In this document: positions 13,711 through 39,705 of the stretch, in pieces
Numbering within the stretch: the first letter of the stretch is position 1
Layout: each line of letters starts with the position of its first letter
Source: Azospirillum sp.
GTDB taxonomy: Bacteria > Pseudomonadota > Alphaproteobacteria > Azospirillales > Azospirillaceae
Assembly (NCBI GenBank): GCA_035629155.1
Contig: DASPIO010000028.1
Coordinates: 23,762-87,761, forward strand
Length of the DNA stretch: 64,000 nt
Direction of reading: 5' to 3'
The notes under the pieces: model-generated
The model's database searches: none
Told to the model about the DNA's origin: nothing
What the model saw: the letters and a program-made list of their open reading frames with translations, nothing else
Translations under genes and position numbers: made by a program

Positions 13711-13714
13711 GGCG

Positions 13715-14011
13715 TCAGCCCAGGCTGGGCAGCTTGACGCCCGGCAACGGAGCGCCCAGGCGCTTGAGGTGGTTGTCGCCGGCGGCGCGCAGCTCGGCGA
13801 CCAGGACGGTTCCCACCTGCTCGGTGGCCACGGCCTGGAGCGTGCCGAGGTATCCAAGCTGCTGCACGACCTGTTCGCGCGTCACGTGGTGGCCCAGCCG
13901 GTTGGCCAGATCCTGGAGGATGGAGGCGTTGGCCCTCGCCCCCGGCGCCTCGGCAAGGAGGCGCAGGAGCACCAGGCGCAGATCCTCGATCAGATGATCC
14001 TGGAAGCTCAT
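13715..14011 (-). CDS. Mu gp26-like winged-helix protein
   Basis: RLVLLRLLAEAPG.RAN.SIL...PGVKLPS motif in its conserved position. Confidence 0.85.
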   Translation of the reverse strand: MSFQDHLIEDLRLVLLRLLAEAPGARANASILQDLANRLGHHVTREQVVQQLGYLGTLQAVATEQVGTVLVAELRAAGDNHLKRLGAPLPGVKLPSLG

Positions 14012-15700: not shown

Positions 15701-15701
15701 G

Positions 15702-24036: not shown

Positions 24037-24800
24037 GCGAAGCGCCTCACCGCAGGAGCCGCGCCGGTGTTGATCCGCTGGCCGGCGTAGTCGGCCAGCG
24101 ACACGCTGCGCAGCCCCTCGCCCTTGGCGAAGGTGGCGACGTTGACCAGGTTCATCGATACGCGGCGCGTCGACCCGTAGGTCTGGCCGATGAGATGTTC
24201 CAGCAGATCGTCGGCGACGGTGATGTCCGGGCAGTACAGCTTGGCCAGCTCGCGCGCGTCGTCGCCGTCGCAGGGCTGGGCGGCGACGAAGTCGAACACG
24301 CGGCTGTGGAAGCGCTCGTACCGCTGGAGCTTCTGCGGCAGCCCCTCCTCGCCGATCAGGATGATGGAGGCGGTGCCGGGCGCGGCCATGTCGTGGAAGG
24401 CGCGGACCTTGTCGATCATCTCCTTCTTGGCCAGGAAGTCGCCCTCGTCGATGACCAGGGGGCGGCGCGAGGTCTCCAGTTCCTCGGCGATCTTCTCCGC
24501 CATCTCGTTGTTCGTGGCGTGCGTGGGGAGCGCCAGACCCATGGCGTCGACGATGGCGCGCAGCATGGCGCGCGGGGTCCAGTAGTCGTTGGCCTCGACG
24601 TAGTAGGCCATGTGCTCGCTGGCGGCGATCCAGGCGGCGGCGCGGCTCTTGCCGTCGCCGCTGCGGCCATGGAAGACACCGAAGCCGGAGACGTCGGAGG
24701 AGCGCGTCTTGAGCCCGATGACCAGCTCTTCCAGCAGGGTCAGGTTGCGCAGCGGGGCCCAACGGCTGGCGGTCTTGCGGGGGGCGGCCGATTTCTGCAT
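24033..24800 (-). CDS. MuB-type AAA+ transposition ATPase
   Basis: Walker A GRSGDGKS, Walker B LVIDEGD, ILIGEE...RFHSRV; directly after the transposase. Confidence 0.93.
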   Translation of the reverse strand: MQKSAAPRKTASRWAPLRNLTLLEELVIGLKTRSSDVSGFGVFHGRSGDGKSRAAAWIAASEHMAYYVEANDYWTPRAMLRAIVDAMGLALPTHATNNEMAEKIAEELETSRRPLVIDEGDFLAKKEMIDKVRAFHDMAAPGTASIILIGEEGLPQKLQRYERFHSRVFDFVAAQPCDGDDARELAKLYCPDITVADDLLEHLIGQTYGSTRRVSMNLVNVATFAKGEGLRSVSLADYAGQRINTGAAPAVRRFA

Positions 24801-24879
24801 GGTGGGGGTCCTTCGATCAGTGCTGTTTTCCGTGCGGTCCGCGGCGTCCCATCTGGCCATGGGCGCCGCTGGCCGGATC

Positions 24880-27054
24880 TCATTCGACGGGACGGGCGAA
24901 GCGGGCCTTGCGCTCCTGGTCGCGGCGGCGGGCCTGGTACCAGGCCGACGTGCGGTTCGACGCCAGCCAGTCCAGATCGTCCTCCGACACCTCCTCGCCG
25001 GCCTCGATGCGCGCCTCGATCGCCTGGGCGCGGCGCCACCAGCGGTCCTCCGGCTTCTCGGCGGCCTGGGCCGGGGCGGCGAGGCGGCGGGCGACGTCGG
25101 CCTGCCGGACCGTGTCCGCCTCGGTGCGCGGCGCCGCGACGGCGGGCTTCGACGCGGTGATCGCGCGCTGGGCGGCCTCCAGGCCGGCGGAGGGCGGCGG
25201 CAGGGACGAGCGCGGCAGCGCGGAAACCGTGGCCGCGGGCCTGCCGATCAGCGCGTCGGCGAGCTGGTGCGGCTTGAACCCCTTGCCGGCGGCGCGGATG
25301 GCCGCCTTCTGATCGGCGATCAACTGCTGTTGCAGCGCCTTGGCCTGGGCCGACAGCTCGGCCCGCGACAGGCCGGCGCGTTCCGGGTTCTGGGCGATGC
25401 AGAGGAATTGGAACGGATCGGGGCGGTACACGAAGACCCGGTCCATCCGCTCCGGATCCAGTCGGACCTCCAGGCGGTCGCCGGTGCCGACGTAGGGGAT
25501 CAGCTCCGGCGCCCAGAAGTCGGCGTTCTCGACCCGGATTCCCTTTTTGCCCACGGTGCGGGTGCCGTCGCCGTCCGCGCAGGGCATCAGCAGCAGGTCG
25601 AGTTGGCGTTCGTCGACGACGCGCCACTCGGATCCTGCGTGCTCCTCCGCCACGGCGGCCGGGGTGCGGTCGCCCAGGCCGGCGTGCGGGCTGGTGTGAT
25701 AGCGGTTCTCGACCCACGCATCGGCCAGCATCTGCAGCTCGGCCGCCGGCAAGGCCGCCTCGAACACCTCTTCGTCCTTCTGGCCCAGGCGGGCGGCGAA
25801 GGTCTGGCGCGAGCGGATCTCCTGACGCTTGGCCACGTTGTGGCCGGTGTAGCCGGGCAGCAGCGGCATCAGCCCGTGCTGAACCGTGCCGATCGCGCGC
25901 TCGACGTGCGGCTTCTGCTCGGGCGAGTACGGTGTGCAGACGGGGTGCCGTATGGCGTCGCCAACCAGCGCGAAGAAGCGTTGCGTCTCGCGGGCCAGGA
26001 AGTCGGAGCCGTTGTCCGTCTTGATCGCCTCGGGCATGCCCCAGGCGAGGATGGCCCGGCGGATCAGCAGCAGCACGGCCGAGGCGCGCGGCACCTTGGT
26101 GACCAGGATCAGCATGCGGCGCGTGAAGACGTCGACCACGACGTAAATCGTGTGCCGCCCATCGGTCAGCATCAGGTCGGTCGGGCTGGCGTCGATCTCC
26201 CACAGCTCGTTGGGCTTGGTGATCGCCTCCGAATAGGAGCCGACGGCAACGAGGCTGCGGTTCTTCCAGGCGTCGGGGTTGGTCAGCCGCAAGTGGAGCT
26301 GCTTGTACTCCTCGCGCCATTGGTTGAGGCGGCGGCGGATCCAGCCGGCGGTGGGCATCTTCGCCTGACCGCCGCGCAGCAGCTCGAACCCCTCGCCGAA
26401 GCGCTTGACCAGGGCCGCCCGGTAGGCGTCGGCGTTCCAGTCGGGCTTGGCCAGCGCCACGGCGACCAGATAGCCCATGATGTCCTCGCGCGCCTGATCC
26501 AGCGACCCGGCACCCTTGCGGTTGCCGTAGGCGCCGGCCAGCCGGGCGGCCTCGCCGGACTCCACGGCCTCGACCCAGCGGCGAAGGGACGATGGGGACA
26601 CCGTGGGCTTGGCGGCACGGGCCCAATCCGGCACGTCCACCTCGCGGGCGTTGTAGAAGCCGGTGAACTTGTGCACCAGCCGGTCGCGGGACAGGCCGCC
26701 GGCCTGCCGCTCGAAGGCGAGGAAGGCGTTGGCGATGGTGGCCTTGGCGTCCAGCCGGGCCTTGCCGGCCTTGGTCAGCACCACCGGGGCGGCGGCGGTG
26801 CCTTTCAGCGTGGCCGCGAGCTTGGGCGGCGCCGGCGGGGTGGCCTGCTCGGCGGCGCGGCGGCCCAGTTCGATGCGGGCTTCCGGCGGAAGGGCTGTGA
26901 CGTGGTACTCGGTGCCGCCGCCGCGGCCCTGGCGGGGGCGAGCGGGCGACCAGCGTTCCTGCTGGGCCCGCATGTTGATGCCGCGCTTGGTGGACGGCAG
27001 GCCGGGGAGCGCGAAAAAGGCCAGTTCAGAAGCCGTGTACCAGCTTTCATCCAT
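24880..27054 (-). CDS. MuA-type DDE transposase
   Basis: N-terminal Mu DNA-binding domain (WYTASELA..ALPGLPST.RG), DDE motifs WEIDAS / KTDNGSDF / KPHVER, Mu C-terminal domain. Confidence 0.97.
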   Translation of the reverse strand: MDESWYTASELAFFALPGLPSTKRGINMRAQQERWSPARPRQGRGGGTEYHVTALPPEARIELGRRAAEQATPPAPPKLAATLKGTAAAPVVLTKAGKARLDAKATIANAFLAFERQAGGLSRDRLVHKFTGFYNAREVDVPDWARAAKPTVSPSSLRRWVEAVESGEAARLAGAYGNRKGAGSLDQAREDIMGYLVAVALAKPDWNADAYRAALVKRFGEGFELLRGGQAKMPTAGWIRRRLNQWREEYKQLHLRLTNPDAWKNRSLVAVGSYSEAITKPNELWEIDASPTDLMLTDGRHTIYVVVDVFTRRMLILVTKVPRASAVLLLIRRAILAWGMPEAIKTDNGSDFLARETQRFFALVGDAIRHPVCTPYSPEQKPHVERAIGTVQHGLMPLLPGYTGHNVAKRQEIRSRQTFAARLGQKDEEVFEAALPAAELQMLADAWVENRYHTSPHAGLGDRTPAAVAEEHAGSEWRVVDERQLDLLLMPCADGDGTRTVGKKGIRVENADFWAPELIPYVGTGDRLEVRLDPERMDRVFVYRPDPFQFLCIAQNPERAGLSRAELSAQAKALQQQLIADQKAAIRAAGKGFKPHQLADALIGRPAATVSALPRSSLPPPSAGLEAAQRAITASKPAVAAPRTEADTVRQADVARRLAAPAQAAEKPEDRWWRRAQAIEARIEAGEEVSEDDLDWLASNRTSAWYQARRRDQERKARFARPVE

Positions 27055-30044: not shown

Positions 30045-30217
30045 GTCAAACCATCCGTCCGTCAGCGTACAATGCGGCGATGTCCGTATGGTTTGACAGA
30101 ACGGAGTGGACGCGTCTCGAAAACCTAGGCATCACAACGCCTGCACGTCCCACTCGATCCCCCAAAATCCCACCGTATCCCGGCCCCCTATCCCGTCAAA
30201 CCATTGGTCTCTCTACA
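30045..30217 (-). repeat. Helper left end (attL): three transposase-binding motifs (30045-30054, 30088-30097, 30195-30204) and terminal CA
   Basis: GTCAAACCAT / ATGGTTTGAC / GTCAAACCAT; read inward, the end is TGTAGAGAGACCAATGGTTTGAC. Confidence 0.9.
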
Positions 30218-30955
30218 CCGGTGCGTCGATCGCCTCGGGCGTCAGGCGGAAGGTGCCGAAATGCATGGCTACGCTGGTGCGGGCACCCAGGTCCTCGTGC
30301 GCCGCCACCGCCTCCTCCGGGTTCATGTGCTGCGGCGCCATGAACCAGCGCGGCTCGTAGGCGCCGATGGGCAGCAGCGCCACGTCGATGCGCGGGAAGC
30401 GGGCGCCGATCTCCTTGAAATGCGGGCCGTAGCCGGTGTCGCCCGCGAAGTACAGCGTGCCGGCATCCGTCTCCACCACGAAGCCGCCCCACAGCGTCGT
30501 GTTGCGCCGGAAGGGCGCGCGCGCCGACCAGTGCTGCGCCGGCACGAAGGTGACGCGGCAGCCGGCCGGTCCCCGCGTGCTCTGCCACCAGTCCAGTTCC
30601 TCGACGTGCGCGAAGCCGTCGCCGTTCAGCAGCGGCCCGTTGCCCAGCCCCACCACCGCCCGCGGCCCGAAGCGCCGGGCCAGCGCCGCCAGCGACGGCC
30701 GGTCCAGGTGGTCGAAGTGCCCGTGGCTGACCAGCACGAGGTTCGGGTCCGGCAGCCGTTCCAGCGGCACGCCCGGCGGGCGGGCCCGCTTCGGCCCCAG
30801 CCGGCCGAACGGACCGGCCCGTTCGGAGAACACCGGGTCGGTGAGCAGGCGAAGGCCCGCCGCCTGCACCAGGAAGGTGGCGTGGCCGACATGGGTGACC
30901 GCCAGCGCGCCCGGTGCCGGGGGTGCCGGGACCGGCTGCGGCGGGTCCTCGACGC
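30218..30955 (-). pseudogene. Middle fragment of a host MBL-fold metallo-hydrolase (NAPE-PLD/RomA-like), cut by both elements
   Basis: VTHVGHATFLVQ, LLTDPVFSERA, SHGHFDHLD, FAGDTGY, LPIGAYEP, MHFGTF motifs. The reading frame is broken at 30217 (helper end) and at 30956 (satellite end). Confidence 0.95.
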
Positions 30956-31000
30956 TGTAGCGCGCCGAATGGTTTGAATTGGCGCGCTGGATGGTTTGAC
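30956..31000 (+). repeat. Satellite right-type end: terminal TG and two tandem ATGGTTTGA sites (30969, 30991) 22 bp apart
   Basis: Read directly from the sequence; the 22-bp period matches Mu R1/R2 spacing. Confidence 0.88.
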
Positions 31001-31053
31001 AGCGCTGACACCCCGTTTCAGGCTTACCGGGAATTGAAGAAGCCTTGGCGCTT

Positions 31054-31467
31054 CTAGGCTAGCGCCGGCAGTGTCGCATCGTCGCCCAGGTGCGCAATTT
31101 GAACATTCCTTCCCGGCGGCTTCCCCCCTGGAGGCTCGATGATAACAACGCCGTCTTTCGTATGATAATGGATAATCAGGACTGTGCGCGCACATCTGGC
31201 GGGATTGGAAAGACGGGACAGGGCTTGCCGATTGTACTTTTTCAAAAAGCGAAAGCATTCACGCATATAGATCCTGTATTCTTCCTGAATATCTTTGCGG
31301 AGCTGTTCCAATGCCGTTGGGCATGGCGGGTTGCCGCACAGATCGCTTTCCCACTTGGCAAATACATTATTCAAACGCGATGAAAGGTCGGCCGCCACTT
31401 CCCCTGACAGCAGGCGCGCGGTTACCTTCTGTGGGCGCTCCCCTGTGCCGTCATACGCGTGCTGCAT
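31054..31467 (-). CDS. Satellite cargo, hypothetical protein (137 aa)
   Basis: AGGAG upstream of TTG ATG; lower GC. The ORF track labels it '+', but the listed translation (MQHAYDG...) reads on the minus strand. Confidence 0.6.
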   Translation of the reverse strand: MQHAYDGTGERPQKVTARLLSGEVAADLSSRLNNVFAKWESDLCGNPPCPTALEQLRKDIQEEYRIYMRECFRFLKKYNRQALSRLSNPARCARTVLIIHYHTKDGVVIIEPPGGKPPGRNVQIAHLGDDATLPALA

Positions 31468-31518
31468 CAACGTCCACTCCTGATTGGTTCGTTATGCCCT
31501 CCCGCTCGACAAGAGGGC

Positions 31519-31546
31519 CGCTCGGCCGGATCTGGCCGGCCGAGCG
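31519..31546. repeat. Perfect 11-bp inverted repeat just downstream of the satellite chaperone stop
   Basis: CGCTCGGCCGG-ATCTGG-CCGGCCGAGCG; no U-tract, so a terminator role is uncertain. Confidence 0.6.
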
Positions 31547-31554
31547 CGCCGGAA

Positions 31555-32079
31555 TCACTTCGGCTGCTCGCCGTTGACGAGCTGCCAATAGGCGTCCTCC
31601 ATCGCCTTGCCGATCACGCGATAGCCGGCCATGGCTTCCACGAGGTCGGGCGAGAAGTCCGGCAGCGTCGAGAAGAAGGCATTCCAGCCGTGGTTGTCGG
31701 GCAGCCCCACCACCACCTTCCGCAGCAGCTCCGTGCGAAAGCCCTTGTGCTGGCTTTCCAGCTTCTCGACTTTGGCGTTGAGTTCCTTCAGATCCTTTTT
31801 CGCCTTGGCGGCGTTGCCGTCCGACGCTTCCAGGGCGAGTTTCGCGGCCTCCTGCTTGGCCTCCGCGATCTCGCTGACGCGCTGGCCCAGCTCGGCGATG
31901 AGCTGATCGTGCTCGCTGTCCGGCAGCAGCATGAACGACAGATAACAGGTCTTTTTGACCTGTTTCCCACCCACCCAGCCGCCGCTGGCACGCTTGGCCG
32001 TTTCCGGCCAGTTGAACATGACCGGCCACACAAACGTCATTTCGGTGGGGGCTGCAAGAGTAATCTTAACCTGTTCCAT
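31555..32079 (-). CDS. Satellite tail assembly chaperone G (paralogue of 713-1207), no frameshift site
   Basis: Shared motifs TF.WPV...WPE.AK, KTC...F.L.PDSE.D.L, LLR.VVVGLPDNH.W, LP.FS.DLVEAMA, W.LVNG. Ends GAG CAG CCG AAG TGA. Confidence 0.9.
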   Translation of the reverse strand: MEQVKITLAAPTEMTFVWPVMFNWPETAKRASGGWVGGKQVKKTCYLSFMLLPDSEHDQLIAELGQRVSEIAEAKQEAAKLALEASDGNAAKAKKDLKELNAKVEKLESQHKGFRTELLRKVVVGLPDNHGWNAFFSTLPDFSPDLVEAMAGYRVIGKAMEDAYWQLVNGEQPK

Positions 32080-32102
32080 TTCCGCTCTCACTCGTTCTTT
32101 AG

Positions 32103-32540
32103 TTAATCCATCAACGAATTGAAGTATTCTGCAATGTCTCTCCATTCGCCTGTCAAAGACTGCTTTGCTGATGCGATCAGGTCATTGATGTACACCTCAA
32201 CTTCGAACCTGACATTCTTTCTTTTGTTTTGGTACAGCGCGCTCAGTCGGCGCCTCTGCCAGCGCTTTGTTAACATGGACCCGAGAAGGCGTTCGGTGTC
32301 GTCAATGTGCGCCACCAGTATTCTCTCAATGCTTGCTCGCAGATCGGAAAACAGAGGATGTCTGGCATCAAAATGTTCTGATGATCCAACCAGTTCAGAA
32401 AACGCATTGCGATTGCTGATATCCCAGCGTTCCAGCACGCTGCGGATTGCGTCAGCTCCGTTTGTCGGCATAGCGGGGCGCATTATCCGAAACTCGACGC
32501 TGTTGCGGTTCTGGATCGGTATTCGGCCGCGTGCGGGCAC
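32103..32540 (-). CDS. Satellite cargo, hypothetical protein (start uncertain)
   Basis: AT-richer ORF between the Ntn-like gene and the chaperone; no recognised family. Confidence 0.55.
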   Translation of the reverse strand: MPARGRIPIQNRNSVEFRIMRPAMPTNGADAIRSVLERWDISNRNAFSELVGSSEHFDARHPLFSDLRASIERILVAHIDDTERLLGSMLTKRWQRRRLSALYQNKRKNVRFEVEVYINDLIASAKQSLTGEWRDIAEYFNSLMD

Positions 32541-33145
32541 CCAAAGCGGTCGTAATACTCGCTATAATCAGGGTAAAATCCTGCTATTTTTTGATCGGCG
32601 CCATGCTCATTTACTTCGGTAAGATGCATGACGCCACCAATGCACATTGGTTGACTAAATTTCTCCTGTACCTTGTGCTGCCCAAGCGCCATCTTTACCA
32701 TCATGGCCTCATCGGCATGCGCGGGAAGGCGCACACCCGGCGCCATTCTGGGCGCAAGATGAATGCCCGGCTCCATCGTGGTCGCCTGGACAGGCACACC
32801 ACCGGCGCGAAGCTTGTACCTCGTGCTCTGCGGCGCCTGCTTGTTGGCGGACCAGCACATCAACGTGATTTCACCACCGGACGCTTCGAAGAATTCATCA
32901 CCGATACGCTCGGGGACGCCGCGAATAACGATATCCACATGCTCTATGCTTTCGACGCGCGCCAGTACAGGCCCAAGGACTTGAAGAAGCGCATGTGTTC
33001 CGCGCATGGAGAATGCAAATCGGCCGCTCTCAGAGACGAAACACTTTCGTTCGCAAAGGCCAACCGGCATGTTGCCCCGGTATATCATCGTGTCCGTCAG
33101 GCACAAAATGCGGTCGCTTCCCACGAATACGTTGCTGACGCTCAT
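32483..33145 (-). CDS. Proteasome-beta/HslV-like Ntn-hydrolase-fold protein
   Basis: After Met removal: Ser1, Asp17, Lys33, Gly48 and C-terminal IGGVMHLTEVNEHG, matching beta-subunit catalytic spacing. ATGA overlap with the TMP stop. Confidence 0.65.
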   Translation of the reverse strand: MSVSNVFVGSDRILCLTDTMIYRGNMPVGLCERKCFVSESGRFAFSMRGTHALLQVLGPVLARVESIEHVDIVIRGVPERIGDEFFEASGGEITLMCWSANKQAPQSTRYKLRAGGVPVQATTMEPGIHLAPRMAPGVRLPAHADEAMMVKMALGQHKVQEKFSQPMCIGGVMHLTEVNEHGADQKIAGFYPDYSEYYDRFGCPHAAEYRSRTATASSFG

Positions 33146-34530
33146 TTAATTGCCTCTTCGAACGCGGAGACGACTTCGGGGCAGGTCAAGAATTCGTCCG
33201 AGAACTCACACTCGGCCATAACCTTCTCAAGCTCGTTGGACAGATCCTTCAGATTGTCCGTCTGGGTCACGACACCGCCACTGCCGTTGGCGGGCGGGGC
33301 GTTGTCCTGCTTCGTCAGGTCGTTGAGTTCGCGTTGCAGCTCGATCCGGCGCTTGACCAGCGCCTCATGCATGGCGGGAACGCCGCTCGTTTTCTCGGGA
33401 AGGCGCCCGTACTCCCGGTCTATCCGCTCGATCTCCGCCCGCAACAGCGACGCCCTGTCCGACTCGATGCCGGCGCGAAGCGCCTTGGCCGCGTCACTGA
33501 CCTTGCCCGCAACCAGCTTGGCAATGTCGCTCCGGGCGAGGCGGTCAACGTAGGCGTCCCAGGCCACGCCAGCGTCATGCAGCGCGGCGCCCCACTCGCT
33601 GCGCATGGTCTGGGCCGCGCCACCGTACCGCTGGCGCAACGCCTCGATGGCGACGTTCAGCGCGCCGGCCTTGTTGCCGTGGTCAGCCAGCATGCGCACC
33701 TGGCGCTCTTGCTCGACCGACAGGAAGTTCAATTCCGCATCGAGTCGCTTGACGCCCTCGCCCCCCTTGCCGAGAGCGTCCCCCATCTTGGCGGCGGCGG
33801 CCGGGATCGTGTAGCCCAGCACCGCCGCAACATCCGGCGCGAGTTCCAGGATGCTGCGGAACAGCTCCGGGTCACGGAGGTCGGGGTTGCGCACCAGCTC
33901 CAAGGTGGACTGGTATGCTTCGCTGCGGGACGCCCCTGCATGGATCGCGACGTTCGCCATGTCGCGGAGCTGGCCGGCCGTGATGCCGGCCTCATTGCCC
34001 ATCGCCTTCAGGATGGACGCGAGTTCCCGCCCCTCGGCACCGATGCTCGCCATGCGCGCGGCGACGATGCCGATCGGCGCGGCGATCACGGCGGCGGCGG
34101 CGCCGATGCCCAGGATGCGGCCCGTGATGCCGGGGAACGCTTGGAGCAACTGCCCGCCCTGTTGCATCAGGACGGTGAACGGGCTGGCGCCGGACGACAG
34201 CGATGCCGCAACGTCGCTGGCCGTGTAGCTCAGCGCCTGGATCTGCTGCGTGCTGAACCTCGTCTTGGTCGCCAAGTTGTCGTTGGCGCTGGCCGCACCG
34301 CCGAACGCCGCACCGGCCCTGTCGGCGGCGCCGGCCGCAGCGCCCAGCGATTGCTTCGCCTCGTCCGCCAGTGTGTCCAGGCGGCCAAGCGCCTGTGAAA
34401 GTTGCTGGCCAGCTTCCCGGCCAGTATCACCAAGCTTGGACACCTCGCCCGTTGCCTTGCGAAGCTCCACTACGAAGTCTTCGGCTTCCGCAGTCAGCTT
34501 GAGGACGACGTGTTCTGCAACCTTGGTCAT
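33142..34530 (-). CDS. Satellite short tape measure protein (462 aa)
   Basis: QQIQALSYTASDVAASLSSGASPFTVLMQQGGQLLQAF lambda-family TMP motif; N-terminus similar to the helper TMP start at 304. Confidence 0.88.
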   Translation of the reverse strand: MTKVAEHVVLKLTAEAEDFVVELRKATGEVSKLGDTGREAGQQLSQALGRLDTLADEAKQSLGAAAGAADRAGAAFGGAASANDNLATKTRFSTQQIQALSYTASDVAASLSSGASPFTVLMQQGGQLLQAFPGITGRILGIGAAAAVIAAPIGIVAARMASIGAEGRELASILKAMGNEAGITAGQLRDMANVAIHAGASRSEAYQSTLELVRNPDLRDPELFRSILELAPDVAAVLGYTIPAAAAKMGDALGKGGEGVKRLDAELNFLSVEQERQVRMLADHGNKAGALNVAIEALRQRYGGAAQTMRSEWGAALHDAGVAWDAYVDRLARSDIAKLVAGKVSDAAKALRAGIESDRASLLRAEIERIDREYGRLPEKTSGVPAMHEALVKRRIELQRELNDLTKQDNAPPANGSGGVVTQTDNLKDLSNELEKVMAECEFSDEFLTCPEVVSAFEEAIK

Positions 34531-34647
34531 GACGATACTCGCTCGCGATTGGGCCGGCGCTGGACTGCTAGACCAGCCCAGCGCCGGCCGCACTCCGATG
34601 CGGTAAGGAGAGCCGGCCCCCGCACCGGATGCCGCTGGGATGCCCGG

Positions 34648-35568
34648 TTACAGGTACGGGGACACCACCAGTTCGGCGGTGCCGGCCCACTCGTTGGGCG
34701 CCGCGACCGTCTGTTCGTTCGGCGCCGTGCCCACCGTGACCAGCTTCATGTTGTTCTTGATGAGACGCAGCCCGTCGCCTTCCAACTCGTCCGGCACCAC
34801 GAGGATGTTGGGGGTAAGGCCCAGCTTCTTGCCGTTCTCGCCCCGGATGCTCTTGATCGCCACGCGGGCCGCCTCGTAGTTGTCGTGCGTCAGCGGCGCC
34901 TTGCTCGCATAGGCGAGCTGCCAGAGCCCGAAGCCGGCGTTGGCGCGCGCGCGGACGCCGTAGAAATACTCGTCTTTCCAGAAGACGTTGTCGTCCGTGG
35001 CGGCGTCCTGCCTCTGGAACTCGTACGGCAGCCGCTCCTGAAACACGAGGGGTTTGACCGGCTGGCCGGCGTCCATCAGGAACCACGCCGGCCCGGCCCC
35101 ATCCTGATAGTTGCTGTAGGACGTAGGCTGACAGTCGATATCCACGACATGATCAGTGGAGAAGAACGGCTTGCCGTCGTAGCACAGCTCGGTAAACCCG
35201 GCTGCCAGAAGCTCGTACACCAACTGGTCGGGGTGCTTCGCCGCGTCGGCGCCCATCTTCTCGTACAGCGGGCCGAAGACGCCGTACTGGTCATCTTCGA
35301 TGGCCGTACGGGGAACGCCAATGGTCACCTCAAACGTGCGGTTCTTGATGGTGTAGCCCGCGACTTCAAGGTTATGGATGATACGCGAGCCGATCCATTC
35401 CCGAAGCTGCGGAAGTTCCTTCAACCAACCATAAGCTTCTTCGCCCGTCGCGCTGTTTGTCTTCATGGCGATTTTCAGGTACGTGCTTTCGACGCCCTTG
35501 AAGCCCTTGTTGAAGGAGGTCTTGAACCCGGCGAACATGCCGGCGAGGTTGGGGGCGGTGATGAGCAT
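34648..35568 (-). CDS. Satellite Mu-like major capsid protein gpT (306 aa)
   Basis: MLITA...F.GF.TSF, REWIG.R..HNLE, CYDG..FF.TDH, GFG.WQLA..SKA.LT..NYEAAR; divergent paralogue of 4750-5643. Confidence 0.95.
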   Translation of the reverse strand: MLITAPNLAGMFAGFKTSFNKGFKGVESTYLKIAMKTNSATGEEAYGWLKELPQLREWIGSRIIHNLEVAGYTIKNRTFEVTIGVPRTAIEDDQYGVFGPLYEKMGADAAKHPDQLVYELLAAGFTELCYDGKPFFSTDHVVDIDCQPTSYSNYQDGAGPAWFLMDAGQPVKPLVFQERLPYEFQRQDAATDDNVFWKDEYFYGVRARANAGFGLWQLAYASKAPLTHDNYEAARVAIKSIRGENGKKLGLTPNILVVPDELEGDGLRLIKNNMKLVTVGTAPNEQTVAAPNEWAGTAELVVSPYL

Positions 35569-35577
35569 GGCTGTCCC

Positions 35578-36543
35578 TTACAGGTTCTTGGCGTATTCGG
35601 CCGGATCGTGTCCGAGGGCCGCGCAGATGGCCTTCTGTTCGGCGGTAAGGCGCCCATCGGCGCCCGAGTTCGGATCGGGCGGCCGGCCCCCCGGCACCAC
35701 CTCACGGGCGAGGTTGCCGAACACGGGCGGAGCGCTGGCGGCGAACTGGTCGAAGCTGGCCGGGTTGGATCGGCAGAGGACGAGCCCCCACTCCCGCTGG
35801 GCCGGTGTCATCTTGCCGGCGCGGATCGCGGCGTCGACCTTGGCCGTCGCCTGCTCCTCCGAAAGGTTGGTGCGCATGCTGGCGAGCTGCGTCGCGGCTT
35901 CATCATAGAGATGGCGCGGCACGTAGAGGGACGGGTCGGGCACGGCGGCGGCCGTCGCCTTCTCGCTGGCGTCCTTGACCAGCTTCGTGACGGCCTCGAT
36001 CACGGCCGCTTCGTCGCTGGTGTCGGGCAGGTTCAACAGCGCGCACAAGCGCTTGATGGTTTCGGGCGACATGGGCGCTCCCATACTGGCAAGGGCCTTG
36101 AGTTCGAAGGCCGGGTTGTTGACCAGGGCGGCCCGAAGAATGCAGGTGACCGCGCCTTCCTTGGTGTGCCGGAAGACGGGGGACACGTAGCGGTACTCCC
36201 TGGCCGCGATCTTGGCAGCGGCGCGCTGCGTCCACTCCACGCGGCCCCAGATGCCATCAGGGCGGGCCTCAAAGGCCGCGATCCAGCCTGCGGCGGGCGC
36301 CTGTCCACCGTGCGGGGCGGCGAGGTCAACGGCGTGGTCGTAGTCGATCACCGGCTTGACCGGACCGGCCATCGTCAGGGACGCGGCGATCACCTGTTGC
36401 GCGGCGGCCATGCCGGGAAGGGACCAGGGGCCGCGACCGTCGCGGCCCTTGATGGTGCCGTAGGGCAGAAGCTGCACCCAATCCGGCGGTGCGGCGGGGA
36501 GTTCGGAAGAGAAGGAGGCGAGAGCGATCAGGGGATCAGTCAT
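35578..36543 (-). CDS. Satellite prohead protease/scaffold gpI; internal scaffold start at 36072
   Basis: DWVQLLPYG, PVIDYDHA, GIWGRVEWT, EYRYVSPVF, ALVNNPA. GGGAG precedes the internal ATG (MSPETIKRLCALLNL). Confidence 0.93.
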   Translation of the reverse strand: MTDPLIALASFSSELPAAPPDWVQLLPYGTIKGRDGRGPWSLPGMAAAQQVIAASLTMAGPVKPVIDYDHAVDLAAPHGGQAPAAGWIAAFEARPDGIWGRVEWTQRAAAKIAAREYRYVSPVFRHTKEGAVTCILRAALVNNPAFELKALASMGAPMSPETIKRLCALLNLPDTSDEAAVIEAVTKLVKDASEKATAAAVPDPSLYVPRHLYDEAATQLASMRTNLSEEQATAKVDAAIRAGKMTPAQREWGLVLCRSNPASFDQFAASAPPVFGNLAREVVPGGRPPDPNSGADGRLTAEQKAICAALGHDPAEYAKNL

Positions 36544-36910
36544 TGCTAATATCCCCATAGATCTCGCGGCGCACTTTCCTTACGTGGCGTTCAGTACATC
36601 CCACGGCCTGTGCGACGACACGCGTTTTCGCGCCTTCCATCGCCAATATCAGTTCCTTCTTGGAACCAGCCGGCGGCGGCAACACCGGGATGTCAATCTG
36701 TTCTCCAGGATACATATTTCCTATTATTTTGGCGTGCTCCAGTCCGACAATCTTTGCGATCTTGGATCGTTCCGAAGGGCTCGCGGCAAATTTCCTCTTA
36801 GTGCCGCCCCAAGAAAGGCCAAGTTTTATTGCCGTTTCGTATGATGTCGCCCGCGCAATACCCGCCAAGAAGGGAGGAAGCCTCTTGATCCTGTCATCAG
36901 TGATCGCCAT
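36536..36910 (-). CDS. Satellite Mor/C-family activator (paralogue of 15702-16076)
   Basis: WGGTKRK, YPGEQIDIP and GCTERHVRKV shared with the helper activator. Start placed at ATG 36910 by alignment; the track's GTG at 36952 overlaps the predicted -10 box. Confidence 0.88.
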   Translation of the reverse strand: MAITDDRIKRLPPFLAGIARATSYETAIKLGLSWGGTKRKFAASPSERSKIAKIVGLEHAKIIGNMYPGEQIDIPVLPPPAGSKKELILAMEGAKTRVVAQAVGCTERHVRKVRREIYGDISND

Positions 36911-36948
36911 AGCCTTGACGTAGCCCCCCGGCATCGGAATTGGTTCCG

Positions 36949-36995
36949 ACACTAGGGGGACGGAGAAGCGTCTATCGACGCGGAACTAGTTCCCC
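36949..36995 (-). promoter_or_regulatory. Satellite late promoter: dyad GCGGAAC-TA-GTTCCCC (36980-36995) plus -10 TAGTGT (36949-36954)
   Basis: Same dyad and 25-nt spacing as the helper late promoters. Confidence 0.7.
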
Positions 36996-37067
36996 TTTGT
37001 CGGGGGAGCTGAGAGATATCCAGCTTTGATGAAGAGGAGCGGCCGATACGCCCGGCCGATTGCCGCC

Positions 37068-37092
37068 CGTTTGAACGGGGCTTTGAACGCCT
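37068..37092. repeat. Tandem TTTGAACG repeat shared with helper 7369-7393
   Basis: CGTTTGAACGGGGCTTTGAACGCCT vs CGTTTGAACGGGGTTTTGAACGCCT, 24/25 identical. Confidence 0.85.
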
Positions 37093-37251
37093 CTGGGGCG
37101 TAGGGCGCACCCACGCTACCGGAAAACGCCAGAACGCACCAGCGGGCTTCCTGTGGGCTTCCAGGGCGGGGCACCCGGCAGCCACCTCCAATGCGAAACG
37201 CCCCGCCGGTAGACCCGGCGGGGCGTTGGTGTCGGCAGCGCGGCGAGGCGT

Positions 37252-37584
37252 CTACGCCTCGCGGGCGTGCCCGCCAGCGCCAACCGCGCGCTCCATGATC
37301 GTATCGACCTTCTCCGTGACTAGCTCCAGCATGGCGATCCACTGGCCCCGCTCGGTGGTGCCCATGATCATCGCTTCAATGGCGCGCAGTCCGGCCTTCA
37401 CCTGCATCAGGTCGTCGCCCAGGCTGTGTTCTGCCTCGCCAGCGACGTAGCCGGCCATGCCCCTCCTACGCGCCTTCCCCATGATGGACGTGAGTTCTTC
37501 GATCACCGCTTCTCTGACCGCGCTCCCCCGCTCCGCGCTGTTCTTGAGGAAGATCACGTTGTTTCCGGTGTTGTCGTGGGCCAT
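37252..37584 (-). CDS. Satellite early hypothetical protein (110 aa)
   Basis: AGGAGG upstream of ATG; helical ORF downstream of the Bro-like gene. Confidence 0.6.
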   Translation of the reverse strand: MAHDNTGNNVIFLKNSAERGSAVREAVIEELTSIMGKARRRGMAGYVAGEAEHSLGDDLMQVKAGLRAIEAMIMGTTERGQWIAMLELVTEKVDTIMERAVGAGGHAREA

Positions 37585-37691
37585 ATTCGAAGAGCCTCCT
37601 ATGGGTTCGCCCGGTGGCACGGTGGCGGGGCACGGTTTTCCAGGCCAAGCGCCCCGCCACCACCCGTCGCGGGCGGTGGGGTGGTAGGGAA

Positions 37692-38216
37692 TCACGATCC
37701 GGCGATGTCGAGGATGCGACGCGCCTTCTCGATGGTGACCGTCAGTTCCATGCGCACGAGGTTGGTTGTGGGGATGCCAGCCCCCGCCTCGCCCATGTCC
37801 AGGCCCGGCGGGATCGGCGGGGCCTCACCCTCCGGCCCGAAGGTCGTGTAGAGCCACCGCAGCACCCCAACGGCGTGGGCGGAGCGACTACGGGCCACCA
37901 TCACCTTCGCGGCAGGGATGGAAAGAAGGCGGGTTGCGGCGCCTCTCCCGTCGTCGATCTGGCGCAGTAGGACGGCGCCCGGCTCTCGCAGTTCCGGGAA
38001 GGTTGACGCGGCATGGTCCACCGACTGCCTTGCCCAACTGGCGCCGGCCGCCCGCATCAGGTCGTTGCCGAGGACGTAGGTTGTGCCGTCCACCGAGAAG
38101 ACGCGGACGGGGGCCGCACCACAGTAGAGGGTGCAGACAGGCGGCAGGCGGGCGTTGTCGGCTGGCACCTCGGGCCGTCCTTCGGCGGGGGCCGCTGGTG
38201 TGCGGGGATCGTCCAT
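37692..38216 (-). CDS. Bro-N / antirepressor-like protein
   Basis: VRVFSVDGTTYVLGNDLMRAAG...LLSIPAAKVMVARSRS.HAVGVLRWL pattern. Confidence 0.7.
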   Translation of the reverse strand: MDDPRTPAAPAEGRPEVPADNARLPPVCTLYCGAAPVRVFSVDGTTYVLGNDLMRAAGASWARQSVDHAASTFPELREPGAVLLRQIDDGRGAATRLLSIPAAKVMVARSRSAHAVGVLRWLYTTFGPEGEAPPIPPGLDMGEAGAGIPTTNLVRMELTVTIEKARRILDIAGS

Positions 38217-38244
38217 CTACTGCTCCAAACTGCGGTTGCGTTGG

Positions 38245-38315
38245 CCCCATGCATGGGGTAATTTGCCCCAGATTGGGCGCCGTTGCAATGGCAAAATGCG
38301 CCAACGTTGGGGTAA
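38245..38315. promoter_or_regulatory. Three operator-like dyads between divergent regulators
   Basis: CCCCATGCATGGGG (38245-38258, perfect), CCCCAGATTGGGCG (38266-38279), CGCCAACGTTGGGG (38299-38312). Confidence 0.65.
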
Positions 38316-38323
38316 ATCGCACC

Positions 38324-38560
38324 ATGATTACGGGTGACCAAATCCGGGCCGGCCGGGAACTGCTCAACTGGTCTGCCCGCGTCTTGTCTGAGCGGGCAGG
38401 CGTGGGGCCGAACACGGTGCAGCGCATGGAAAGCGCCGGAGCGGCGGTGCCATCAGGTCTTGCCGCCAACCTGGACAAGGTGCAGAAGGCATTAGAGGCG
38501 GGTGGGATTGAGTTCCGGGACGGCGGGTGGGTGCGTAGGTCACCGCAGAACGGCGCGTAA
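38324..38560 (+). CDS. XRE-family HTH regulator (satellite repressor candidate)
   Basis: MITGDQIRAGRELLNWSARVLSERAGVGPNTVQRME...LEAGGIEF, a common alphaproteobacterial XRE pattern. Confidence 0.88.
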   Translation: MITGDQIRAGRELLNWSARVLSERAGVGPNTVQRMESAGAAVPSGLAANLDKVQKALEAGGIEFRDGGWVRRSPQNGA

Positions 38561-38645
38561 GACGTGCTACCGATCACCAATGCGAGGGTGTCAACGCCAA
38601 AGTGATGCACCTTAACCACCGGCATCACTGTGGTAAGGTGCGCAC

Positions 38646-38843
38646 ATGGCTGTGAACCCGGATACCACCGTACGCAAGGTCGTCTCGCTTCCCAAAGAGT
38701 TGTGGGAAGAGGTGAGCGACTATCGCTTTGATAACAGATTGGGCACGGAAGCGGACGCGCTTCGGCGTCTGATCCAACTTGGATTGGATGCCGCCAAGGC
38801 CAGTCCCCGCGATCCTGGCCGCGCACCGTCGCGGAAGCGCTAG
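38646..38843 (+). CDS. Ribbon-helix-helix (CopG/Arc-like) protein
   Basis: RKVVSLPKELWEEVSDYRF...TEADALRRLIQLGL. Confidence 0.8.
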   Translation: MAVNPDTTVRKVVSLPKELWEEVSDYRFDNRLGTEADALRRLIQLGLDAAKASPRDPGRAPSRKR

Positions 38844-39291
38844 TCGCTCCCCAAAGCAAGCGAGGCGGGACCGCGCCAGCGGCCCCGCCTCGTAGTGTCT
38901 GGCACCCATGCGGAGGGTTGGGAGACTGGCGTCAACGGACGCCACGCCCCACCACGTTGCCACACCAGCGCCCGCCCGATGCCTCGGAACGAGTTCCGCT
39001 TGGTGGGAGCCGGCGGCAGGCTCCATCTACAACCGGCGCGCGATCCCGAGACGGCGGGCCGGAACCGGAACCCCTTCCCACTTCCGGACGGATCTTTCAT
39101 CGCGCGATGGTTGTGACGGAAACGCAAGCCACTGCAATAACAAGCTTTTTTGAACTGTAGCCTTCCCAGTTTGACTGGAAACGCTAGCTTCCACTTCCGT
39201 CCCACTTCCGTAGCCGAACCGGGACCCGGCCTACGCGCCACATCCCTTGCAAATCTTGGCTTTAGCTGCGTTTTAGTGCCGCCTCCGTTCA

Positions 39292-39462
39292 GTCAATCCA
39301 TACGTCTCCCGGACACTTTCGCGCGTTGCGCCGCATGGTTTGGCGGAAAATTCCGGTTGTGCCCCTAACCCTATGATCCAATGCGCCGTTCATCCCATCT
39401 GATCCCCGAAAATCCCACGGTATCCCGGCCCCCTATCCTGTCAAACCATTGGTCTCTCCACA
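39292..39462 (-). repeat. Satellite left-type end: three transposase-type sites (39292, 39335, 39440) and terminal CA
   Basis: GTCAATCCAT / ATGGTTTGGC / GTCAAACCAT in the same orientations as the helper, spacings 43 and 105 bp vs 43 and 107 bp. Last 62 bp are 58/62 identical to 30156-30217. Confidence 0.92.
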
Positions 39463-39612
39463 GACGCGCTCCGGCCAAGGCGCCCAGCCGCGGTGCGACC
39501 AGAAACGCAGCAGGTCGCCCGGGCCCTTGTCGGTCGACTGGAAATGCGGCGGGTTGAAGAACCGCCGTCCGTCGCAATGGTCGGAAACCGGGAAGCGCGC
39601 GATGCGGGCCAT
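39463..39612 (-). pseudogene. N-terminal fragment of the interrupted MBL-fold hydrolase
   Basis: MARIARFPVSDHCDGRRFFNP...DLLRFW...WPERV, the usual N-terminus of this family; joins in frame to 30950. Confidence 0.92.
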
Positions 39613-39648
39613 AGCGTTCCTACCGAGGCGTTCCTGCCGAAAAACGGA

Positions 39649-39681
39649 AAAAGCCCCTCGCCACGGGGGAGAGGGGCTTTT
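39649..39681 (-). terminator. Intrinsic terminator after clpP
   Basis: AAAAGCCCCTC...GAGGGGCTTTT inverted repeat with A/T tracts on both sides. Confidence 0.7.
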
Positions 39682-39705
39682 CACCGTGTCCCGTGCCGGG
39701 CCGGA

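What the first reader, a model, noticed from the sequence alone, without database searches (positions are those of the whole stretch)
39292..39462. Cis-acting ends conserved almost exactly while proteins diverged: shared three-site end and probable pac signal
Seen: the last 62 bp match helper 30156-30217 at 58/62 positions. The three motif copies have the same orientations and near-identical spacing (43/105 vs 43/107 bp), and the sequence between them is otherwise unrelated. Conservation extends about 40 bp inward of the terminal binding site. Known: Mu pac lies a few tens of bp inside the left end. Inferred: selection keeps the element recognisable to the helper's transposase and small terminase, which argues against simple prophage decay.
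Basis: partly seen in the sequence, partly recalled or inferred. Interest (0 to 1): 0.85.

Follow-up and report, generated by a model that had tools for sequence, protein, structure and literature searches.

The report
Mini-Mu satellite's helper-matched left end
This 171-bp stretch is the left end of an 8.5-kb transposable element descended from a Mu-like phage; the element has no transposase or DNA-packaging genes of its own, yet it keeps transposase-binding sites and a packaging-signal-like repeat array almost identical to those of the complete Mu-like prophage 739 bp away, so it looks like a kind of phage satellite for which my literature searches found no description.

Summary
Window 39401-39462 matches 30156-30217 at 58/62 positions. 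Three GTCAAACCAT-type sites have the same orientations in both, with spacings of 43/105 and 43/107 bp, and the spacers between them are at background identity (40-43%).

The stretch is the attL-type end of an 8,507-bp Mu-type element (30956-39462). The element has TG..CA termini and a 5-bp target duplication (GACGC). Removing it restores an MBL-fold hydrolase gene, and a related soil strain carries the empty site.

The element encodes a repressor-like HTH protein, a Mor/C-like activator, the Mu I protease/scaffold, the Mu T capsid protein, a short tape-measure-like protein and a tail-chaperone homologue. It has no transposase, MuB, terminase or portal.

The conserved 48 bp inside L1 is an array of GGGAY motifs at exact 10-bp phase. 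The same array sits beside the terminal sites of many Mu-like elements whose transposase sites are unrelated. In phage Mu itself it lies where pac was mapped.

Relatives with the same reduced gene set occur at other chromosomal sites and are under purifying selection (dN/dS 0.17-0.41).

The best reading is a non-autonomous, capsid-encoding satellite that uses the helper's MuA and TerS. Protein binding, packaging and the helper's right end were not tested. I found no literature on Mu-type satellites.

The parts
30956..39462 (-). The whole non-autonomous Mu-type element (8,507 bp). Its genes read on the minus strand, so its left (pac/repressor) end is at 39462 and its right end at 30956.
   Evidence: TG..CA termini, 5-bp duplication, host ORF restored on removal; empty site in run X5.
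39440..39462 (+). L1: the terminal transposase-binding-site candidate (core GTCAAACCAT) plus 13 nt to the CA terminus. It matches the helper's L1 at 22/23.
   Evidence: The corresponding site at the left end of viral contig L012 is 22/23 identical to this one and 23/23 to the helper's.
39392..39439 (-). Candidate pac. Read inward from the terminus: AGGAT at position 24, then GGGAT at positions 37, 47, 57 and 67, at exact 10-bp phase.
   Evidence: (a GGGAY x3 phased pattern occurs only at the two left ends in the window; expected 0.00). Mu has the same design at 33-67.
39335..39344 (-). L2 core (GCCAAACCAT, extended as ...GCGGCGC), in inverted orientation.
39292..39301 (+). L3 core (GTCAATCCAT).
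39463..39467 (.). Target-site duplication GACGC, copy at the left end.
30951..30955 (.). Target-site duplication GACGC, copy at the right end.
30956..31000 (-). Right end: R1 (TTCAAACCAT, 13 nt from the terminus) and R2 (GTCAAACCAT), 22 bp apart and in the same orientation.
   Evidence: The relative L005 has the same two-site right end.
38288..38560 (+). HTH_3 repressor-like gene of the element, divergent from the other genes, in the position of Mu c.
   Evidence: gene calls in L001/L002.
37692..38216 (-). 174-aa protein with no family match. Conserved in relative L005 (57% identity, dN/dS 0.28).
36536..36952 (-). Mor/C-like late transcriptional activator.
   Evidence: phrog_836, E=2e-12; 40% identity to the helper homologue at 15741-16103.
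35578..36558 (-). Mu-like I protein (head protease/scaffold).
   Evidence: PF10123, E=3e-71.
34648..35568 (-). Mu-like gpT major head subunit.
   Evidence: PF10124, E=5e-113.
33142..34593 (-). Short tape-measure-like protein (TMP_2). The longest ORF is 483 aa; the gene as called on public contigs is 462 aa.
   Evidence: PF06791, E=4e-24; several PHROG tape-measure families; gene call.
31054..33145 (-). Lower-GC cargo region. It holds 220-aa, 145-aa and 138-aa ORFs with no family match, and a 196-aa homologue of the helper's tail-assembly-chaperone-like gene (31555-32145).
37068..37090 (-). 23-bp element GCGTTCAAAGCCCCGTTCAAACG upstream of the Mor-like/I/T genes. Its only other copy is upstream of the helper's gene I (7369-7391). 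Candidate shared late-promoter or activator site.
30045..30217 (-). Left end of the neighbouring complete Mu-like prophage (the helper): L1 at 30195-30217, GGGAY array at 30147-30194, L2 at 30088-30097, L3 at 30045-30054.
24880..27054 (-). Helper MuA-type DDE transposase.
   Evidence: Pfam HTH_Tnp_Mu_1, rve and Mu-transpos_C.
24033..24860 (-). Helper MuB-like AAA+ protein.
   Evidence: Pfam AAA_22.
13171..13857 (-). Helper small terminase, Mu gp27 family.
   Evidence: PF11985, E=1e-41.
11564..13174 (-). Helper large terminase.
   Evidence: Pfam Terminase_6N, weak; same position in relative L178.

Best explanation
Window 39292-39462 is the attL-type left end of an 8.5-kb non-autonomous Mu-type transposable element, a natural 'mini-Mu' that behaves as a phage satellite. 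It contains three candidate transposase-binding sites (L1 terminal, L2 inverted, L3) laid out as in the neighbouring complete Mu-like prophage. Between L1 and L2 lies a 10-bp-phased GGGAY array, which is the likely pac site. The element has no transposase, MuB, terminase or portal. It must therefore be transposed by a MuA supplied in trans, binding L1-L3 and R1-R2, and be packaged by a gp27-type small terminase that recognises the array, with headful packaging running inward from the left end. Its own I (protease/scaffold), T (capsid), short tape-measure-like and chaperone-like genes probably redirect assembly towards small particles sized for about 8-10 kb. Shown here: the end structure, the target duplication, the empty site, the gene content, the conservation pattern, the family of relatives, and purifying selection. 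Inferred: which proteins bind, that the adjacent prophage is the actual helper, and that the capsid is small.
For: The end is real and was created by transposition: a 5-bp GACGC duplication and a restored MBL-fold ORF, and a 654-bp contig in soil run X5 that spans the uninterrupted site with exactly the expected length. A second flank at the left end and a contig starting exactly at base 30956 in run X2 suggest further insertion sites. In run X1 the element's contig has depth 469, against 141-162 for the helper and 135-198 for the host flank. Gene content: I, T, TMP_2, Mor-like, HTH; no A, B, terminase or portal. The neighbour has MuA, a MuB-like protein, gp27 TerS, TerL, portal and F. Conservation is confined to motifs: L1 22/23, array 41/48, L2 and L3 13/17 each, spacers 40-43%, while proteins are 40-50% identical. 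The eight helper/element differences in the first 71 bp lie at positions 4, 24, 44, 55, 63-65 and 71. That is outside the L1 core and outside the GGGA cores of the four repeats at positions 37-67; position 24 degrades the extra helper repeat to AGGAT. The array occurs at positions 37/47/57/67 in the helper, the element and viral contig L012, whose A-gene region (with flanking genes) is only about 68% identical in DNA to the helper's. It occurs at 33/43/53/63 in Mu and next to the terminal sites of elements with unrelated transposase sites (L004, L008, L108, L158). It is present at only one end of each element examined. In L004 and L008 it is not flanked by a further transposase site, which argues for a function separate from transpososome architecture. 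The family: L005 (T 72% identical) has the same A/B-less architecture and the same two-site right end in a different context. L174 and L175 are one 8,309-bp A/B-less I-T-TMP element at two chromosomal sites with 5-bp duplications. dN/dS is 0.17-0.41. Elements of this kind are 7.5-9.1 kb long.
Against: No binding, transposition or packaging experiment exists. The helper's right end lies outside the window and could not be retrieved, so only left ends could be compared. Ends that are more similar than proteins could be inherited from a mosaic ancestor whose transposase was close to the helper's, rather than being maintained by this helper. The position of Mu pac is cited from my memory of the primary papers, not from a text I could read. 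The element sits 739 bp from the helper's left end, where Mu-type cis-immunity would be expected to disfavour insertion (PMC2837660). The threefold depth comes from contig-level k-mer depth and no alternative junction contigs were seen in X1. The X2 alternative flank is only 26 nt long. Small-capsid formation is a guess based on element size and gene content. The TMP_2 protein is unrelated to the helper-type tape-measure protein, and its role is unknown.
Confidence: 0.72

Rival explanations
1. The conserved 48-bp array is not a packaging signal but an architectural element of the transpososome. It would be a phased, bendable or host-factor-bound spacer that brings L1 and L2 together, as HU does in the Mu L1-L2 spacer.
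For: In the helper, the element, L012 and Mu the array lies between L1 and L2. A 10-bp phase is what a bending element would have. It is present at one end only, as is the Mu L1-L2 spacer.
Against: In L004, L008, L108 and L158 the array follows two abutting terminal sites, and no further site lies beyond it. The motif is conserved across elements whose transposase sites are unrelated, so it does not co-vary with the transposase. In Mu the array lies where pac was mapped (plus my recollection of the literature).
Confidence: 0.17
2. The element is an inert deletion remnant of a second Mu-like prophage, and its end resembles the neighbour's only through common descent.
For: It lacks most phage genes. 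Mu-like phages are mosaic, so ends and head genes can have different histories.
Against: All its ORFs are intact. The same reduced architecture is kept in a relative whose T protein is 72% identical, with dN/dS of 0.17-0.41. Analogous A/B-less I-T-TMP elements occupy different chromosomal sites with fresh 5-bp duplications. An empty site exists in a related strain, depth is about threefold in X1, and spacers are at background identity while the motifs are kept.
Confidence: 0.06
3. The 70-bp similarity is a product of recent recombination or gene conversion between two elements lying 9.2 kb apart in direct orientation.
For: The two elements are close together and in the same orientation.
Against: Identity is 90%, not about 100%. 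The longest perfect runs are about 19 bp. The differences lie outside the L1 core and the GGGA cores of the four repeats at positions 37-67. L2 and L3 are conserved only in their cores. L012, from another metagenome, shows the same motif-only conservation pattern.
Confidence: 0.04
4. The element is a genuine satellite, but its working helper is a different Mu-like phage, and the adjacent prophage is a bystander or is itself defective.
For: The helper's right end and distal tail genes are outside the window. Helper depth equals host depth where the element is threefold. Immunity genes differ: the element's HTH protein has no match in the helper.
Against: L1 is 22/23 identical and the array 41/48 identical to the neighbour's. 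The exact L1 19-mer is otherwise found at only one other Mu-like left end: the same 25.5-kb contig in the viral and metagenome collections. It is absent from 185,579 species genomes, and the only other metagenome hit looked like a chance match. A second cis element is shared only between these two. The relative L005 is also found beside, in fact inside, a Mu-like prophage with the same site core.
Confidence: 0.12

Closest known systems
attL (left end) of Escherichia phage Mu: L1, L2, L3 and pac
   Same: TG..CA termini and a 5-bp target duplication. A terminal site is followed at a distance by two more sites, while the right end has two abutting sites. A 10-bp-phased GGGAK/GGGAT array starts about 10 bp inside L1 (Mu positions 33-67; here 37-71).
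   Different: The transposase-site sequence is unrelated to Mu's. L2 is inverted here. The helper's MuA is at most 37% identical to any cultured phage's transposase. The element carrying this end has no A or B gene.
Laboratory mini-Mu / Mud elements complemented by a helper Mu
   Same: Both ends plus the left-end packaging region are enough for transposition and headful packaging when A, B and the morphogenetic functions are supplied in trans (established Mu genetics; mini-Mu with a helper plasmid in PMC5847225, listed).
   Different: This one is natural and belongs to a conserved family. It carries its own capsid, protease/scaffold, tape-measure-like, chaperone-like and regulatory genes.
Capsid-forming PICIs (cf-PICIs)
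   Same: A small chromosomal element that encodes its own capsid and protease/scaffold but depends on a helper phage for the rest of the virion.
   Different: cf-PICIs integrate with a tyrosine or serine integrase, excise, replicate from their own origin, and carry their own portal, connector and small terminase. This element has none of these. It moves by Mu-type transposition and appears to borrow the helper's TerS through a shared pac.
P4 and SaPI-type satellites
   Same: Dependence on a helper for virion proteins. Element size is about a quarter to a third of the helper's, which fits small-capsid redirection.
   Different: P4 and SaPIs remodel helper-encoded capsid protein and use cos, or pac with their own TerS. 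They are site-specific integrators.
Non-autonomous DNA transposons (MITE-like derivatives of DDE transposons)
   Same: The ends are kept, the transposase is lost, and mobilisation happens in trans by a related autonomous copy.
   Different: Here the autonomous partner is a virus, and the derivative also keeps a packaging signal and structural genes, so it can leave the cell.

Membership tests
Mu-type (transposable-phage) element end | 5'-TG...CA-3' termini | tested here: met
   TGTAGCGCG... at 30956 and ...TCTCCACA at 39462.
Mu-type (transposable-phage) element end | 5-bp target-site duplication; the target is restored when the element is removed | tested here: met
   GACGC on both sides. The joined flanks give an uninterrupted MBL-fold ORF. 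An empty-site contig of the exact expected length exists in run X5.
Mu-type (transposable-phage) element end | Several transposase-binding sites per end, spaced at the left end and abutting at the right end | tested here: met
   L1/L2/L3 at 39440/39335/39292; R1/R2 at 30969/30991, 22 bp apart; both L1 and R1 cores lie 13 nt from the terminus. This is sequence evidence only.
Mu-type (transposable-phage) element end | The sites are bound by the MuA-type transposase | not testable with these tools
   Needs EMSA or footprinting.
Autonomous transposable phage (Mu-like) | Encodes a DDE transposase A and the MuB ATPase | tested here: not met
   No such genes lie between 30956 and 39462. They are present in the neighbour.
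Autonomous transposable phage (Mu-like) | Encodes terminase, portal and tail genes | tested here: not met
   Only I, T, a TMP_2 protein and a chaperone-like gene are present.
Mu pac site | Located a few tens of bp inside the left end, at one end only | tested here: met
   The array lies at 24-71 bp from the terminus. The phased GGGAY x3 pattern is found only at the two left ends in the window. The same layout is found in Mu.
Mu pac site | Required for packaging and recognised by the phage's small terminase | not testable with these tools
   Needs TerS binding and packaging assays.
Phage satellite (general) | Cannot make virions alone; a co-resident helper encodes the missing functions | tested here: met
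   Gene content of the element and of the neighbour.
Phage satellite (general) | Mobilised (amplified and packaged) when the helper is active | tested here: inconclusive
   Depth is threefold that of helper and host in X1. There is a second flank and a terminus-exact contig start in X2. These are contig-level data only; there are no virion data.
PICI / cf-PICI / P4-like satellites | Integrase-mediated site-specific integration with att sites | tested here: not met
   No integrase gene. The ends are Mu-type with 5-bp duplications. Relatives are found at unrelated sites.
Decaying prophage remnant | Disrupted genes, relaxed selection, architecture not conserved | tested here: not met
   ORFs are intact. 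dN/dS is 0.17-0.41 against L005. The same architecture is found in L005 and, independently, in L174/L175.

The most novel reading that the evidence does not exclude
Transposable (Mu-like) phages have their own widespread class of satellites, for which I found no description. These are 7.5-9 kb mini-Mu elements that always keep the I protease/scaffold and T capsid genes, often with a short tape-measure protein. Some retain A and B. Others, like this one, have lost them and rely wholly on a helper's transposase acting on matched ends. All share a one-ended, 10-bp-phased GGGAY array that would be the general pac signal of the Mu family, read by gp27-type small terminases. Such elements would spread by being transposed and then headful-packaged into small, self-encoded capsids.
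Probability: 0.5. Interest if true: 0.9.

Novelty: new variant of a known kind. Interest (0 to 1): 0.8.

Why it matters
All well-described satellite families (P4-like, PICI, cf-PICI, PLE, PICMI) integrate site-specifically and parasitise phages that package from concatemers. A satellite of a transposable phage would use a different mechanism: its replication, integration and packaging would all depend on two short cis elements matched to the helper, namely the transposase sites and pac. If the reading is correct, three things follow. First, it gives a natural system in which transposition and packaging signals can be separated genetically. Second, it offers a sequence-level candidate for the pac site of the Mu family, which to my knowledge has been mapped but not dissected. 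Third, it points to many similar small elements in Alphaproteobacteria and beyond that would likely be annotated as Mu-like prophage fragments. Because these elements insert almost at random and carry host DNA in headful particles, they could also be a neglected route of gene disruption and transduction in soil bacteria.

Tried and rejected
**Helper's right end.**
- Exact-protein look-ups for five tail-side genes either failed or returned only a 984-bp contig.
- A relative (L178) showed that the tape-measure gene alone is 5.5 kb, so the right end lies more than 10 kb beyond the window start.
- As a result, right ends of helper and element could not be compared.

**Collection scans.**
- The right-end pattern in IMG/VR gave one match inside a coding region with no second site, which I rejected as chance.
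- The L1 19-mer gave no hit in GTDB species genomes.
- In JGI metagenomes it gave only the contig already found, plus a match in an unrelated contig that I judged to be chance.

**Element proteins without a family.** The proteins of 174, 147, 220, 145, 138 and 65 aa had no Pfam, PHROG or PADLOC match. The 174-aa protein also had no PDB sequence match. The 174-aa protein is not a MuA fragment, and it is not related to the HTH_Tnp_Mu_1-like protein of L174.

**Tape-measure origin.** I tested whether the element's tape-measure-like protein is an internally deleted helper tape-measure protein. It is not: there is no significant similarity.

**Literature.** Five full-text searches for Mu-type or transposable-phage satellites found nothing relevant. 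The review of transposable-phage diversity (PMC10284936) is not held.

**RNA runs.** Runs X2 and X3 cover the element and the helper evenly at low depth, which cannot be told apart from DNA carry-over. I did not use them as evidence of expression.

Full report
**1. The observation**

Window 39401-39462 differs from 30156-30217 at four of 62 positions. The gap-free match extends to 39393-39462 vs 30148-30217, 90% over 70 nt (E=6e-21). The 19-mer GTCAAACCATTGGTCTCTC occurs only at these two places (expected 0.01).

The 10-mer GTCAAACCAT, allowing one mismatch, occurs 14 times against 1.3 expected. Three copies lie at the helper end (30045+, 30088-, 30195+) and three at the element end (39292+, 39335-, 39440+). 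Orientations are the same and spacings are 43/107 and 43/105 bp.

A three-way alignment with an independent relative gives helper/element identities of:
- 22/23 for L1 plus terminus
- 41/48 for the next 48 bp
- 13/17 for each of L2 and L3
- 19/47 and 10/23 for the two spacers

So the similarity is confined to discrete motifs and one 48-bp block.

**2. What the stretch belongs to**

The other end of the element is at 30956. It reads TGTAGCGCGCCGAATGGTTTGAATTGGCGCGCTGGATGGTTTGAC, that is, two sites 22 bp apart. The five bases outside each terminus are GACGC. Deleting 30956-39462 plus one GACGC joins the flanks into one uninterrupted ORF for an MBL-fold hydrolase (Lactamase_B_2, E=5e-43).

A 654-bp contig in a soil metagenome from another study (run X5) lies on 30821-30950. 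It then has 7 nt, then lies on 39470-39600. This is the exact length expected for the unoccupied site in a related strain. The element is therefore 8,507 bp long and was inserted by Mu-type transposition.

The complete Mu-like prophage ends at 30217, so only 739 bp separate the two elements. They lie head to tail in the same orientation, and the host ORF between them has its stop codon inside the prophage's terminal bases.

**3. Gene content**

On the minus strand the element encodes:
- a Mor/C-like late activator (phrog_836)
- the Mu I protease/scaffold (PF10123, E=3e-71)
- the Mu T major head protein (PF10124, E=5e-113)
- a 462-483-aa TMP_2 tape-measure-like protein
- several ORFs without any family match, in a lower-GC segment
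- a homologue (41-48% identity) of the helper-type gene that follows the major tail gene

On the plus strand, near the left end, there is an HTH_3 repressor-like gene. There is no transposase, MuB, terminase, portal, F, tail tube or lysis gene.

The neighbour encodes MuA, a MuB-like AAA+ protein, gp27-type TerS, TerL, portal, F, I and T. Its MuA is at most 37% identical to that of any cultured phage. Shared proteins are only 40-50% identical between the two elements.

**4. The conserved 48 bp is a phased repeat array shared with Mu**

Read inward from the terminus, the motif positions are:
- Helper: GGGAT at 24, 37, 47 and 57, and GGGAC at 67
- Element: AGGAT at 24, and GGGAT at 37, 47, 57 and 67

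The pattern GGGAY-N5-GGGAY-N5-GGGAY occurs nowhere else in the 64-kb window (expected 0.00).

A viral contig from another metagenome (L012) has an identical L1 (23/23). Its A-gene region is only about 68% identical in DNA to the helper's. It has GGGAY at 37, 47, 57, 67 and 80, with different spacers.

I fetched the left end of Escherichia phage Mu (AF083977). It has GGGAG at 33, TGGAT at 43, GGGAT at 53 and GGGAT at 63. From my memory of Groenen & van de Putte 1985 (the reference is listed in PMC5418689) and Harel et al. 1990, pac was mapped to roughly 32-58 bp from the Mu left end. That Mu packages by headful from attL is stated in PMC2837660.

The same array follows the terminal sites of Mu-like elements whose transposase sites are quite different: GGAATTATCCTGCA in L004, L008 and L010; TAATTATYTACC in L108; GTSTGCACTGA in L158. 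It always has the same polarity relative to the terminus and is found at one end only. In L004 and L008 no further transposase site follows it.

The motif therefore tracks something shared by the whole family rather than each transposase's specificity. A multimeric small terminase that contacts successive helical turns is the simplest candidate. It is a comparative argument, not a functional one.

**5. Not a decaying remnant**

The closest relative of the element's T protein (72% identity; contig L005 from a different run) has the same architecture: a 172-aa protein, a Mor-like protein, I, T, a 462-aa TMP_2 protein and a 218-aa protein, with no A or B. It also has the same two-site right end, GTCAAACCAT-N12-GTCGAACCATGCGGCGCGCTACA.

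Between the two, dN/dS is:
- 0.41 for I
- 0.24 for T
- 0.26 for TMP
- 0.17 for the 220-aa protein
- 0.28 for the 174-aa protein

The L005 element is inserted in a different place. It lies inside the c-repressor gene of another Mu-like prophage, 1.28 kb from that prophage's left end, which has the same site core and its own GGGAY array.

An independent lineage (T 55% identical) gives an 8,309-bp element with a Mu-DNA-binding-domain protein, I, T and an 813-818-aa tape-measure protein, and no A or B. It is found 99.99% identical at two chromosomal sites, with TG..CA ends and 5-bp duplications CTGCC and CGGAG.

A further group of 7.5-9.1-kb elements keeps a repressor, an A-like protein, a MuB-like protein, GemA, I (not called in L008/L009) and T, sometimes with TMP_2, between host genes. 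Examples are L004 in Roseomonas genomospecies 6, L008/L009, L010, and L103 in the complete genome of Phyllobacterium sp. 628.

In a rough tblastn survey, 44 of about 167 loci carrying a T gene had A, B or GemA directly upstream of I/T and no portal, TerL or F within 10 kb. That count is preliminary. The narrow size range is compatible with a packaging limit set by a small capsid, but that is inference.

**6. Signs of activity**

In soil run X1 the contig carrying the element has k-mer depth 469. The helper contigs have 141-162 and the host flanks 135-198. The contig nevertheless runs about 230-260 bp into the flanks. That would fit extra copies with heterogeneous, individually rare junctions, but no such junction contigs were seen.

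In run X2 one contig follows the left end to 39466 and then continues with a different 26-nt flank that is absent from the window. Another contig begins exactly at base 30956. These data are suggestive only.

**7. Other shared cis elements**

A 23-bp sequence with two CGTTCAAA repeats occurs only upstream of the helper's gene I (7369-7391) and upstream of the element's Mor-like/I/T genes (37068-37090). A GGAAC-NN-GTTCCGCGTC palindrome recurs at 7280, 15687, 36976 and 38986. These may be activator sites that tie the element's head genes to the helper's late programme. I did not test this.

**8. Mechanism proposed**

- Shown: Mu-type ends; transposition-type insertion; absence of A, B and terminase; motif-restricted conservation with the neighbour; a family of relatives under selection.
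- Inferred: helper MuA binds L1-L3 and R1-R2 and transposes the element. Helper TerS binds the GGGAY array and starts headful packaging inward from 39462. The element's I and T (and perhaps TMP_2 and the chaperone homologue) build smaller particles sized for about 8-10 kb.

The tandem arrangement also means that packaging from the element's pac into a helper-sized head would take in the element, 739 bp of host DNA and most of the helper.

**9. What does not fit or is unknown**

- Mu-type cis-immunity should disfavour insertion 739 bp from a Mu end (PMC2837660). Yet both A/B-less relatives seen here lie within 1.3 kb of a Mu-like left end. Transposase made locally and acting preferentially nearby is one possible explanation. 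I have no evidence for it.
- The helper's right end could not be obtained.
- The helper has internal copies of the end-site consensus (19 bp identical at 4330 and 16528, plus 317) with no explanation.

**10. Novelty**

Five full-text searches found no description of satellites of transposable phages, or of natural capsid-encoding mini-Mu elements. The library does not hold most subscription journals. I rate this a new variant of known kinds (phage satellite; non-autonomous transposon; mini-Mu), of high interest.

Noticed in passing
window 4330-4348(-), 16528-16546(-), 317-326(+): The helper prophage carries internal copies of the end-site consensus. ccGTCAAACCATccggcgc is identical over 19 bp at 4330 and 16528, in different reading frames, and a third core copy lies at 317. 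About 0.02 exact 10-mers are expected by my own base-composition estimate (not a tool result). No function is evident.
   Followed up: partly
window 7369-7391(-) and 37068-37090(-); palindromes at 7280-7303, 15687-15704, 36976-36993, 38986-39003: A 23-bp element with two CGTTCAAA repeats is shared only by the regions upstream of the helper's gene I and of the element's Mor-like/I/T genes. A GGAAC-NN-GTTCCGCGTC palindrome recurs in both elements. These are candidate late-activator sites linking the element to the helper's late programme.
   Followed up: partly
window 30218-30955 and 39463-39684: The helper's left end and the satellite lie in or at the end of the same MBL-fold hydrolase gene. 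They are 739 bp apart, in the same orientation, head to tail. This is unexpected under Mu-type target (cis) immunity.
   Followed up: partly
L005 7682-8946: The closest relative of the satellite is inserted inside the c-repressor gene of another Mu-like prophage, 1.28 kb from that prophage's left end and in the opposite orientation. The contig ends exactly in that prophage's L1 site.
   Followed up: partly
window 30727-39726 in run X1: The contig carrying the satellite has k-mer depth 469. The helper has 141-162 and the host flanks 135-198, so the satellite is about threefold over-represented while the helper is not amplified.
   Followed up: partly
L174 5537-13845 and L175 5537-13845: An 8,309-bp element with no A or B gene (Mu-DNA-binding-domain protein, I, T, 813-818-aa tape-measure protein) sits at two different chromosomal sites, 99.99% identical, with 5-bp duplications CTGCC and CGGAG. 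Its left end has a roughly 10-bp-spaced GNGAA array.
   Followed up: partly
L004 3690-11856; L008 4790-13873; L010 565-8125; L103 3395-12046: Elements of 7.5-9.1 kb sit between host genes with a repressor, an A-like protein, a MuB-like protein, GemA, I (not called in L008) and T (plus TMP_2 in L008) and no terminase or portal. L004, L008 and L010 share GGAATTATYCTGCA end sites, and L004 and L008 have a full GGGAY array at the end next to the head genes (L010 shows at least the first repeat there).
   Followed up: partly
window 31054-33145: A lower-GC (53-60%) segment of the satellite holds three ORFs (220, 145 and 138 aa) with no Pfam, PHROG or PADLOC match. They could be cargo or helper-interference genes.
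   Followed up: partly
L178 12198-17660 vs window 33142-34593: A close relative of the helper has an 1,820-aa TMP_3 tape-measure protein. The satellite's TMP_2 protein is a quarter of that length and unrelated in sequence.
   Followed up: yes
window 57742-58200: There are twelve tandem 27-nt units (9-aa period, glycine/aspartate-rich coding), resembling RTX-type calcium-binding repeats in a large host ORF.
   Followed up: no
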